NCBI GenBank assembly: GCA_001189105.1
Contig: LFCL01000009.1
Location: 1-54,221 of the forward strand
Reading direction: 5' to 3'
Length of the DNA: 54,221 nt
From: Parcubacteria bacterium C7867-002
GTDB lineage: Bacteria; Patescibacteriota; Minisyncoccia; Phycocordibacterales; PALSA-1337
This document shows, one piece after another, positions 32,792 through 33,003 of the stretch (positions within the stretch are counted from its first letter, which is position 1; each line of letters starts with the position of its first letter). The notes below the pieces were generated by a model. The model had not been told where the DNA came from. It ran no database searches and saw only the letters and a program-made list of their open reading frames with translations. The position numbers were made by a program, and so were the translations under genes.

Positions 32792-33003
32792 TTTAAAAGT
32801 TCCTCGACAATCAAAGAACTAAAGATTTTGAGAGGGATATCATTGTTTCTTCGGAAAAATAGGTATTCTTCTCAATCAACAAGCAGCTCTGCGACGTTTG
32901 GTCGTAGGGTATGCCCCCGTGCCCGGGCCGCAGGCTAGTAATAGCCTGATGAAGCTGGAATTAAATTCCAGAAAACCACTCACCTCCTCCTTTGTTTACA
33001 ACT

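What the first reader, a model, noticed from the sequence alone, without database searches (positions are those of the whole stretch)
32798..33003. Stem-loop-rich ~200-nt region between the candidate promoter and the first repeat: possible tracr/omega-like scaffold fused to the array
Downstream of the predicted TSS the sequence has no ORF and is packed with short, well-formed hairpins. These are TTTC-TTCG-GAAA (about 32847-32858, UUCG loop), CGAC-GTTTG-GTCG (about 32893-32905), the palindrome GCCCGGGC (about 32920-32927), GGCTA-GTAA-TAGCC (about 32934-32947, GNRA loop) and CTGGAAT-TAA-ATTCCAG (about 32964-32980). GTGCCCGG at 32918-32925 can pair with the repeat 3' end TTGGGCAC: 6 Watson-Crick pairs plus 2 G:U. 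That is only a weak anti-repeat. It also opens with a repeat-like unit (32802-32838: CCTCGACAA...ATTTTGAGAGGG, versus the repeat CCTCGAGACACCTATTTTAGGAGAGGG). Cas12f and TnpB need a large structured tracrRNA or omega-RNA scaffold. Here a scaffold-like segment seems to be co-transcribed 5' of the repeats, which is not the usual arrangement.
Basis: partly seen in the sequence, partly recalled or inferred. Interest (0 to 1): 0.6.

Follow-up and report, generated by a model that had tools for sequence, protein, structure and literature searches.

The report
Guide-RNA scaffold fused to CRISPR array
The roughly 205-nt stretch is a conserved, folded guide-RNA scaffold (like a tracrRNA or omega-RNA) made as one transcript with a tiny CRISPR array, and it serves a miniature, probably non-cutting TnpB/Cas12-like protein found in ultra-small Patescibacteria; it looks like a surviving intermediate between a transposon omega-RNA and a split tracrRNA plus crRNA.

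Summary
Window 32798-33003 folds far better than shuffles (z -4.4; with repeat 1, z -5.2).

A homologous scaffold lies directly 5' of an array, on the same strand, in 17 copies from 13 Patescibacteria loci including this window. Each follows a TTGAC(A/T) -35 box. Four hairpins covary strongly (P1-P4).

The last six repeat bases (GGGCAC) pair with a hairpin loop (GUGCCC, 32919-24). Both that pairing and the hairpin stem covary, so this is a pseudoknot. The next repeat bases pair with AACCAC... (32974-90). Together these form the guide-pseudoknot-stem core known from TnpB omega-RNA and Cas12f guide RNAs.

A covarying helix joins the transcript's 5' end to the sequence after the last half-repeat.

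The 393-aa protein has a TnpB/Cas12f fold. It lacks the canonical RuvC-II Glu, the RuvC-III Asp and the zinc finger.

Relatives carry a small cas1. Here cas1 has an internal deletion of about 450 bp.

Both spacers match the cell's own genome (topA; the pilB/adk spacer region). Spacers in four related genomes also match their own genomes, at scattered housekeeping genes.

No RNA data could be obtained. I class it as a new variant of a known kind. The scan had noted sister loci in other genomes.

The parts
32764..32791 (+). Sigma-70-like promoter, TTGACA-16-TAGAGT with TG before the -10. The inferred transcription start is near 32798.
   Evidence: 10 of 12 matches. A TTGAC(A/T) -35 box lies upstream of all 17 homologous scaffolds. 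In the 15 that pass the scan's rule, the -10 ends 27-50 nt before P1.
32810..32824 (+). 5' strand of the closing helix (ATCAAAGAACTAAAG). It pairs with 33159-33173, just after the last half-repeat.
   Evidence: 15 bp. The helix is part of the minimum-energy fold of the whole transcript. Other loci have the same helix with a different sequence: L004 13 and 12 bp, L024 12 bp twice, L006 12 bp. By eye, L014 and L020 have it with a bulge.
32830..32873 (+). Stem P1 (GAGAGGGATATC with GGTATTCTTCTC). Its tip hairpin is TTTC-TTCG-GAAA at 32846-32857.
   Evidence: 92.6% of cells are paired, and 3 pairs change on both sides.
32887..32909 (+). Stem P2 (CTCTGCGAC - GTTTG - GTCGTAGGG).
   Evidence: A hairpin of 7-9 pairs at this place in 16 of 17 copies, with unrelated stem sequences.
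32913..32928 (+). Pseudoknot hairpin. The stem is GCCC (32913-16) with GGGC (32925-28). The loop carries anti-repeat b, GTGCCC (32919-24), which pairs with the last 6 nt of the repeat.
   Evidence: The stem covaries (GCCC/GGGC, GTGT/GCAC, GTGT/ACAC, GTC/GAC). The loop-to-repeat pairing covaries (G:C in 6 copies, A:U in 11) and is 100% paired.
32931..32948 (+). Stem P3 (CAGGCTA - GTAA - TAGCCTG).
   Evidence: All 7 pairs change on both sides across copies.
32955..32971 (+). Stem P4 (CTGGAAT - TAA - ATTCCAG).
   Evidence: 5 of its 7 pairs change on both sides.
32974..32990 (+). Anti-repeat a. AACCAC pairs with GTGGTT (33031-36). An extension with bulges pairs with GGAGAGG (33024-30).
   Evidence: The 6-bp core is 88% paired, mostly through one-sided G:U changes. 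Duplex energy is -20.9 kcal/mol here and -12 to -19 in the other copies computed.
32991..33003 (+). Short linker between the scaffold and repeat 1.
   Evidence: Variable in length and sequence across copies.
33004..33042 (+). Repeat 1 (39 nt), joined in cis to the scaffold.
33043..33073 (+). Spacer 1 (31 nt).
   Evidence: Matches window 53677-53707 (-) at 27 of 31 bases.
33074..33112 (+). Repeat 2, identical to repeat 1.
33113..33143 (+). Spacer 2 (31 nt).
   Evidence: Matches contig C6 19689-19719 (-) at 30 of 31 bases, inside topA and antisense to it.
33144..33173 (+). Terminal half-repeat (33144-33164, the 5' half only), running into the 3' strand of the closing helix (33159-33173).
   Evidence: A half-repeat ends the array in most homologous loci.
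33186..33220 (+). Intrinsic terminator of the scaffold-array transcript.
   Evidence: 11-pair stem followed by a T run.
33161..33550 (-). cas1 remnant. Only the last 70 or so residues of Cas1 are recognisable.
   Evidence: 74% identity to residues 180-249 of the 249-aa Cas1 of L022. No Pfam hit. About 450 bp of L022 cas1 (2279-2729) are missing here. No Cas1 elsewhere in the genome.
33542..34723 (+). Gene for the 393-aa TnpB/Cas12f-like effector that would use this RNA.
   Evidence: NF040570 at 60 bits (below its cut-off) and PF01385. Profile hit to ISDra2 TnpB, E 4.6e-9. AlphaFold model pLDDT 86.5, with Foldseek TM 0.59-0.64 to TnpB and AsCas12f.
53677..53707 (-). Chromosomal match to spacer 1. 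It lies between the divergent T2SSE (pilB-like) gene and an adenylate-kinase-like gene.

Best explanation
Window 32798-33003 encodes the scaffold of the guide RNA for the neighbouring miniature TnpB/Cas12-like protein.

Transcript (inferred from promoter and terminator). One precursor starts near 32798. It runs through the scaffold, two repeat-spacer units and a terminal half-repeat, and ends at the terminator near 33220.

Fold (shown by folding and covariation). The scaffold forms four hairpins, P1 to P4. It holds the repeat by two contacts:
- The loop of a 4-bp hairpin (GUGCCC) pairs with the six repeat bases next to the guide. This makes a pseudoknot.
- AACCAC... pairs with the repeat bases just upstream of those six.
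Scaffold, repeat 1 and spacer 1 therefore form a natural single-guide RNA with the guide-pseudoknot-stem core of TnpB omega-RNA and Cas12f tracrRNA:crRNA.

Later repeats (inferred). They would have to use the scaffold in trans, or by competing for it within the same transcript.

Closing helix (helix shown, role inferred). A covarying helix joins the 5' end to the sequence after the last half-repeat and closes the precursor. It is a plausible site for processing by a double-strand RNase.

What the complex does (inferred). It most likely binds matching DNA without cutting it. The evidence is that the protein lacks the canonical Glu, the third Asp and the zinc finger, and that arrays of this family are full of spacers matching the cell's own genes.
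For: - Folding: z -4.41 for the scaffold, -5.18 with repeat 1, -6.91 for the whole transcript; the minus strand reaches only -2.28.
- Conservation: 17 full-length homologous copies in 13 loci including the window, whose proteins are 35-74% identical. Every copy is fused 5' of an array on the same strand.
- Covariation on a MAFFT alignment: 81.6% paired against 69.3%, score 0.403 against 0.193 (0 of 500 shuffles), slid controls at most 0.171; P3 changes on both sides at 7 of 7 pairs. The model-fitted alignment gives the same picture. RNAalifold finds 17 of 40 pairs with compensatory change.
- P2 is present in 16 of 17 copies with unrelated sequences.
- The pseudoknot stem and the loop-to-repeat pairing both covary.
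- The closing helix covaries.
- A -35 box lies upstream of all 17 copies, and a terminator follows the array.
- The same guide-PK-stem layout is solved for ISDra2 TnpB and Cas12f (PMC10097598).
- Protein: TnpB/Cas12f fold. G298 aligns with the Glu of the EDL motif. The whole family lacks CxxC motifs and has Lys at the expected third Asp.
- Own-genome matches: 2 of 2 spacers here and about 8 more in four related genomes.
- The genome encodes RNase III.
Against: - No transcript or protein-binding data.
- The tested structure was derived from this window's own sequence. The 17 copies are related, and three pairs are near-identical, so shuffle statistics overstate significance.
- Anti-repeat a varies mostly on one side.
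- The same repeat bases can instead pair with the repeat's own 5' half (79% paired, not above shuffle).
- There is one scaffold for 2-8 repeats per transcript, so how later guides are loaded is unexplained.
- Here cas1 is deleted and spacer 1 differs from its chromosomal match at positions 2 and 4, so this particular copy could be on its way to decay.
- No shared flanking motif was found at the own-genome matches.
Confidence: 0.8

Rival explanations
1. The scaffold acts in cis only. It serves spacer 1 alone, like an omega-RNA. The later repeats are self-sufficient crRNAs whose own 5' half supplies the stem next to the guide, or they are inert. On this view there is no trans-acting tracrRNA.
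For: - Each repeat can form an internal hairpin (CACCU with AGGGUG here). The hairpin is 79% paired across copies, with one covarying pair (CG in 7, UA in 4).
- The scaffold-to-repeat ratio is 1:n.
- Several loci duplicate the whole scaffold+array unit instead of lengthening arrays: L004, L024, L021 and L018.
Against: - The internal hairpin does not exceed shuffled controls.
- Later repeats keep the GGGYAC end and the GGTGG core that pair with the scaffold. A repeat alone has no partner for the pseudoknot.
- Relatives keep arrays of up to 8 units.
Confidence: 0.12
2. The region is a relic. In this genome the locus is decaying, and the RNA is conserved only because it diverged recently from working relatives.
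For: - cas1 has an internal deletion, and no Cas1 is found elsewhere in the genome.
- Only two spacers remain.
- Spacer 1 has 4 mismatches to its chromosomal match.
- The protein was not found in 36 genomes of the same genus.
Against: - The effector ORF is intact, and its invariant family residues are kept.
- The two repeats are identical.
- Every helix, the promoter and the terminator are intact.
- The locus is 74% identical in DNA to L022, yet the helices are kept through compensatory changes.
Confidence: 0.05
3. The region is a DNA-level CRISPR leader that guides spacer integration by Cas1, or an unrelated small RNA or cis-regulatory element. On this view it is not a guide-RNA scaffold.
For: - It occupies the position where CRISPR leaders lie.
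- It has no Rfam match.
Against: - Compensatory base changes and G:U pairs that work only on the + strand point to selection on RNA structure.
- The region pairs with the repeat, and that pairing covaries.
- It is kept here although cas1 is gone.
- It is always linked to this one protein family.
Confidence: 0.03

Closest known systems
ISDra2 TnpB omega-RNA (reRNA); structures 8H1J, 8EXA, 8BF8
   Same: - A single long RNA with several stems.
- The bases just 5' of the guide pair with a site about 100 nt upstream to form a pseudoknot, followed by a stem (PMC10097598). Here -6..-1 pairs with -124..-119.
- The protein is the best sequence match among solved structures and a top fold match.
   Different: - It is not part of a transposon: single copy, no transposase, no element ends.
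- The RNA lies upstream of the gene or apart from it, not overlapping its 3' end.
- It continues into a repeat-spacer array.
- The loop joining the two halves is about 33 nt (linker plus repeat 5' half) rather than a tetraloop.
- The nuclease site is degenerate.
Type V-F Cas12f tracrRNA:crRNA (Un1Cas12f, AsCas12f)
   Same: - Two separate repeat:anti-repeat contacts, one of them the pseudoknot next to the guide.
- A scaffold of about 200 nt.
- A miniature effector with the same fold (TM 0.62-0.64 to AsCas12f).
   Different: - No sequence-level match to any solved Cas12f.
- The scaffold is covalently joined to the first repeat and shares its promoter, rather than being a separate tracrRNA gene.
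- The zinc finger, the canonical Glu and the third Asp are missing.
- The adaptation module is Cas1 alone.
TranC systems (transposon-CRISPR intermediates; 'functional RNA splitting'), as cited in 10.64898/2026.03.27.714800
   Same: - TnpB-sized proteins linked to short CRISPR arrays.
- Their guide RNAs are read as split omega-RNAs.
- Short arrays (medians of about 5 repeats).
   Different: - TranC proteins are active nucleases, and no accessory cas genes were reported for them.
- Here the RNA is both unsplit (unit 1) and split (later units) within one transcript.
- cas1 is present in relatives.
- The nuclease looks impaired.
- LaTranC is only a moderate fold match (TM 0.48).
Nuclease-dead Cas12f lineages: dCas12f-sigmaE and CRISPR-linked dCas12f (PMC13472631), with the tracrRNA + half-repeat fusion model (PMC10691335)
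   Same: - C-terminally eroded RuvC domain.
- Single guide RNAs made of scaffold plus guide.
- Guide RNAs found by covariation upstream of CRISPR loci.
- Guides that match host genes.
- The fold matches dCas12f 9N9C (TM 0.54/0.60).
   Different: - A different phylum: Patescibacteria rather than Bacteroidota.
- No sigma factor or HTH partner seen.
- No sequence-level match.
- A full array and, in relatives, cas1 are kept.
- Own-genome matches fall inside housekeeping ORFs on either strand rather than at promoters.
Fragmented CasY locus with self-targeting spacers in CPR Roizmanbacteria (PMC6509639)
   Same: - A CPR bacterium with a type V locus, Cas1, an effector that probably cannot cut, and many spacers matching its own genes.
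- The authors note that CPR bacteria lack RecBCD, which normally limits uptake of self spacers.
   Different: - That case is a recently broken large Cas12d with a clear PAM.
- This one is an old, conserved, miniature family with no evident flanking motif.
Cas14e (Harrington et al. 2018).
   Same: A miniature type V effector reported from uncultivated bacteria.
   Different: I could not reach the sequence or the paper, so neither identity nor difference can be stated.

Membership tests
TnpB/Cas12 (type V) effector superfamily | TnpB-like architecture and RuvC fold | tested here: met
   NF040570 E 1.9e-16 (60 bits, below its 100-bit cut-off) and PF01385. Profile hit to ISDra2 TnpB, E 4.6e-9. Foldseek E 1e-13 and TM about 0.6 to TnpB and Cas12f.
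TnpB/Cas12 (type V) effector superfamily | Canonical RuvC Asp-Glu-Asp triad and zinc finger | tested here: not met
   D211 is kept. G298 aligns with the Glu of EDL. There are no CxxC motifs, and Lys sits at the expected third Asp in all core members. A rearranged active site cannot be excluded: some relatives have Gly-Glu at this position, and distant relatives with a zinc finger also have Gly there.
CRISPR-Cas locus (type V-like) | Repeat-spacer array next to the effector gene | tested here: met
   Two identical 39-nt repeats plus a half-repeat, with 31-nt spacers. Arrays with related repeats occur in the homologous loci, and their spacers are unrelated.
CRISPR-Cas locus (type V-like) | Adaptation gene cas1 | tested here: not met
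   Relatives L022-L025 carry a Cas1 of about 250 aa. In this window only a remnant is left, and no Cas1 is found in the 90%-complete genome.
tracrRNA / omega-RNA type guide scaffold | Anti-repeat complementary to the repeat and co-evolving with it | tested here: met
   GTGCCC:GGGCAC against GTACCC:GGGTAC, 100% paired. AACCAC:GTGGTT is 88% paired.
tracrRNA / omega-RNA type guide scaffold | Guide-pseudoknot-stem core as in solved TnpB and Cas12 guide RNAs | tested here: met
   The two crossing helices both covary. The layout matches the description in PMC10097598. This is a sequence-level inference, not a solved structure.
tracrRNA / omega-RNA type guide scaffold | Transcribed and bound by the effector | not testable with these tools
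Only promoter and terminator predictions are available.
Type V-F (Cas12f) | Sequence membership in the Cas12f clade | tested here: inconclusive
   No solved Cas12f is hit by the family profile at E up to 1. Fold similarity is equal to that with TnpB. No phylogeny was built.
TldR (TnpB-like nuclease-dead repressors) | A single fixed guide aimed at a conserved promoter, with no CRISPR array or cas1 | tested here: not met
   Arrays are present, and relatives have cas1. Own-genome matches lie in different housekeeping ORFs in each genome.
Any Rfam family | Match to a curated covariance model | tested here: not met
   No match at E up to 1 in 30000-37000.

The most novel reading that the evidence does not exclude
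This family would be an old, Patescibacteria-specific system that is fed by Cas1 and does not cut. Its arrays are filled mainly with pieces of the cell's own chromosome. Its natural single-guide precursor (scaffold, then array, closed by a terminal helix) would direct binding to chromosomal genes. That would make it an adaptive, heritable way of marking or tuning the cell's own genes, or of recognising kin DNA taken up from outside, rather than an immune system with tolerated accidents.
Probability: 0.2. Interest if true: 0.85.

Novelty: new variant of a known kind. Interest (0 to 1): 0.62.

Why it matters
Structural and phylogenetic work has proposed that tracrRNA plus crRNA arose by splitting a transposon omega-RNA, and that dead Cas12f lineages later re-fused them. 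This family shows both states in one natural transcript. The first unit is an unsplit scaffold-repeat-guide. The following repeat-spacer units would need the scaffold in trans.

That makes several questions directly testable in a very small system, a protein of about 390 aa and an RNA of about 250 nt:
- how one scaffold serves several guides;
- what the terminal closing helix does in processing;
- which RNA contacts are essential.

The high share of spacers matching the cell's own genome, together with an eroded nuclease site and a minimal Cas1, bears on two further questions. One is what CRISPR-derived systems do in bacteria with very reduced genomes. The other is whether natural CRISPR-interference-like regulation can arise from ordinary spacer uptake.

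The compact scaffold map may also help in designing miniature DNA-binding tools.

Tried and rejected
- Rfam scan of 30-37 kb: no match.
- Relatives in the same genus or order: the protein was not found in the 60 genomes searched. Relatives came from other Patescibacteria contigs instead.
- A conserved regulatory target. I tested whether related genomes aim at the same genes (topA, pilB/adk). They do not. Matches fall in uvrD/pcrA-like, pyk, hisS, cysS, def and rplO-region ORFs and in secreted-protein ORFs, on either strand. I therefore dropped the TldR-like fixed-promoter model as the leading reading.
- RNA targeting: rejected, because guide orientation relative to the matched genes is mixed.
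- A target-adjacent motif: the 5' flanks (GTTT, GTTC, TTGT, ACTC, CAGA, AAAC, AATC, TGTA) show no significant consensus.
- Promoter scan at the spacer 1 match: none found.
- Repeat-internal hairpin as the true stem: compatible with the sequences but not above shuffled controls.
- Column-based counting of the pseudoknot stem was hampered by gap placement, so I counted it per sequence instead.
- Naming the family. The supplements of PMC10691335 are not held. No source names were found for 14 family members. The Cas14 paper is not held. The V-U subtype, TranC clade or Cas14e identity therefore remains open.
- The 88-codon ORF across the scaffold was rejected as a gene.

Full report
**What is at the coordinates**

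The sequence shows these features, in order:
- a strong sigma-70-like promoter, TTGACA-16-TAGAGT, at 32764-32791;
- the roughly 205-nt region in question;
- two identical 39-nt repeats (33004-42 and 33074-112) with 31-nt spacers;
- a half-repeat (33144-64);
- an intrinsic terminator at 33186-33220;
- from 33542, a gene for a 393-aa protein.

The region folds much better than chance on the + strand. The z-score is -4.41 for the region alone, -5.18 with repeat 1, and -6.91 for the whole predicted transcript. The minus strand reaches only -2.28. Rfam has no match.

The 'GCCCGGGC palindrome' is not a hairpin.

**Conservation**

The protein has about 24 close relatives, 34-74% identical, and about 25 clusters in a deeper search. 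All named records are Patescibacteria or Saccharibacteria assemblies. The protein was not found in the 60 genomes of the same genus or order that were searched.

An nhmmer profile and then a covariance model found the scaffold plus first repeat in 17 full-length copies in 13 loci including the window, at 124-206 bits. Cut-off pieces lie at contig ends in six further loci.

Every copy lies directly 5' of an array, on the same strand. The unit may lie upstream or downstream of the gene. Four loci carry two complete scaffold+array units: L004, L024, L021 and L018.

A TTGAC(A/T) -35 box precedes all 17 copies. In the 15 that pass the scan's rule, the -10 ends 27-50 nt before stem P1.

The own genome holds one copy.

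**Structure and covariation**

| Measure, MAFFT alignment not fitted to structure | Observed | Control |
|---|---|---|
| Cells that form a pair | 81.6% | 69.3% shuffled |
| Covariation score | 0.403 | 0.193 shuffled (0 of 500 as high) |
| Covariation score, partners slid by 1-3 columns | | at most 0.171 |

The model-fitted alignment agrees. RNAalifold finds compensatory change at 17 of 40 pairs.

- P3 changes on both sides at 7 of 7 pairs.
- P4 does so at 5 of 7 pairs.
- P2 is misaligned by column. Folded copy by copy, it is a 7-9-bp hairpin in 16 of 17 copies, with unrelated sequences.

The six bases GTGCCC (32919-24) pair with the last six bases of the repeat. This covaries: GTGCCC with GGGCAC in 6 copies, GTACCC with GGGTAC in 11.

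The bases on either side of GTGCCC form a 4-bp stem that also covaries (GCCC/GGGC, GTGT/GCAC, GTGT/ACAC, GTC/GAC). The two helices cross, so this is a pseudoknot.

The repeat bases just upstream (GTGGTT, extending into GGAGAGG) pair with AACCAC... at 32974-90.

This is the guide-pseudoknot-stem core solved for the ISDra2 TnpB omega-RNA, where -6..-2 pairs with -102..-106. It is equated there with repeat:anti-repeat contacts 1 and 2 of Cas12f (PMC10097598).

**The closing helix**

ATCAAAGAACTAAAG (32810-24) pairs with TTTTAGTTCTTTGAT (33159-73), which begins inside the terminal half-repeat.

The same helix, with different sequence, occurs in L004 (13 and 12 bp), in both L024 units (12 bp) and in L006 (12 bp). 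By eye, L014 and L020 have it with a bulge. It is part of the minimum-energy fold of the whole transcript.

It encloses the entire scaffold+array, much as processing stems enclose rRNA precursors. That comparison is my inference. The genome encodes RNase III, which makes such processing possible but does not show it.

**The protein and the locus**

The best sequence matches among solved structures are ISDra2 and ISFba1 TnpB. No Cas12f is hit. The AlphaFold model (pLDDT 86.5) matches TnpB, AsCas12f and dCas12f about equally, at TM 0.54-0.64.

D211 (RuvC-I) is invariant. Gly stands where the Glu of the EDL motif aligns. The zinc finger is absent, and an invariant Lys sits where the third Asp is expected.

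A few family members have Gly-Glu at the RuvC-II position. Distant relatives that keep the zinc finger also have Gly there. A rearranged active site in the ancestor therefore cannot be excluded.

Close relatives have a Cas1 of about 250 aa, transcribed divergently from the effector gene. The window is colinear with L022 at 74% DNA identity but lacks about 450 bp of cas1. Only the last 70 or so residues remain recognisable. No Cas1 is found elsewhere in the 90%-complete genome. Spacers differ completely between the window and L022.

**What the guides match**

Both spacers match the organism's own genome:
- Spacer 2 matches topA at 30 of 31 bases, on the antisense strand.
- Spacer 1 matches 27 of 31 bases, all four differences being transitions. 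The match lies between the divergent pilB-like ATPase gene and an adenylate-kinase-like gene.

By my arithmetic, a 27-of-31 match in 1.26 Mb of both strands is expected about 1e-6 times by chance.

The same holds in relatives:

| Genome | Spacers matching the own genome |
|---|---|
| G061 (L004) | 5 of 8 unique spacers |
| G062 (L010) | one spacer, 31 of 31 |
| G064 (L007) | one spacer, 31 of 31 |
| G063 (L009) | one 24-nt match at 96% |

The matched sites lie inside housekeeping ORFs: uvrD/pcrA-like, pyruvate kinase, hisS, cysS, def and the rplO region. They fall on either strand, with no shared gene and no shared flank.

This pattern fits random uptake of own DNA that an effector unable to cut can tolerate. 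A similar reading was proposed for a broken CasY locus in another CPR lineage, and CPR bacteria lack RecBCD (PMC6509639). It fits a fixed-promoter regulator less well. Whether binding at these sites has a physiological effect is open.

**Open problems**

- One scaffold serves 2-8 repeats per transcript.
- The repeat bases that pair with anti-repeat a can also pair with the repeat's own 5' half.
- The role of the conserved terminal half-repeat is unknown.
- No RNA data were available.

**Comparison with known systems**

The RNA works like a TnpB omega-RNA or a Cas12f tracrRNA:crRNA. The locus resembles TranC and type V-U systems, and the CRISPR-linked dCas12f clusters for which guide RNAs upstream of arrays were inferred by covariation (PMC13472631).

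Fusion of a tracrRNA to a half-repeat has been proposed as an evolutionary step (PMC10691335). Here the fusion is to a complete array, in a separate TnpB-like lineage of Patescibacteria that carries Cas1.

I could not assign the family to a published V-U or TranC clade, nor test the Cas14e lead from an earlier scan note.

**Verdict**

The finding is a new variant of a known kind, of moderately high interest.

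Noticed in passing
window 33113-33143, and genome contig C6 19689-19719: Spacer 2 matches the organism's own topA gene at 30 of 31 bases, antisense, inside the coding region. 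The single difference would change Thr to Ile if it lay in the gene.
   Followed up: yes
window 33161-33550 (-): cas1 pseudogene. About 450 bp are deleted relative to the orthologous L022 locus, which removes the catalytic core. No other Cas1 is found in the genome.
   Followed up: yes
L004 4426-4990 and 5400-5711; genomes G061-G064: In four related Patescibacteria genomes most array spacers also match the own chromosome, including perfect 31-nt matches inside a uvrD/pcrA-like gene and pyruvate kinase. The L004 arrays also hold duplicated spacers and an 8-nt slippage at the first spacer.
   Followed up: partly
L004, L024, L021, L018: These loci carry two complete scaffold+array units each. In L004 they form an inverted pair around an AT-rich core. 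In L024 they flank cas1 and the effector gene.
   Followed up: partly
proteins P0054-P0077: A larger second tier of relatives of about 430 aa lacks even the RuvC-I Asp ('ALGAS', 'VVTDLV') and the zinc finger. This appears to be a fully dead TnpB-like family of unknown context.
   Followed up: no
window 34774-34820 and 35311-35357: Two near-identical 47-nt copies containing a terminator-like hairpin bracket a 147-codon ORF (34872-35315), just downstream of the effector gene.
   Followed up: no
window 33013-33033, and all repeats of the family: Each repeat can form an internal hairpin between its 5' half and the GGGTGG core. This competes with the scaffold's second anti-repeat.
   Followed up: partly
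window 32802-32836 compared with repeat 33005-33031: The start of the scaffold (CCTCGA...ATTTTGAGAGGG) resembles a repeat (CCTCGA...ATTTTAGGAGAGGG). In L004 both carry GAGAAGG instead. This hints that stem P1 arose from a repeat-like unit.
   Followed up: no
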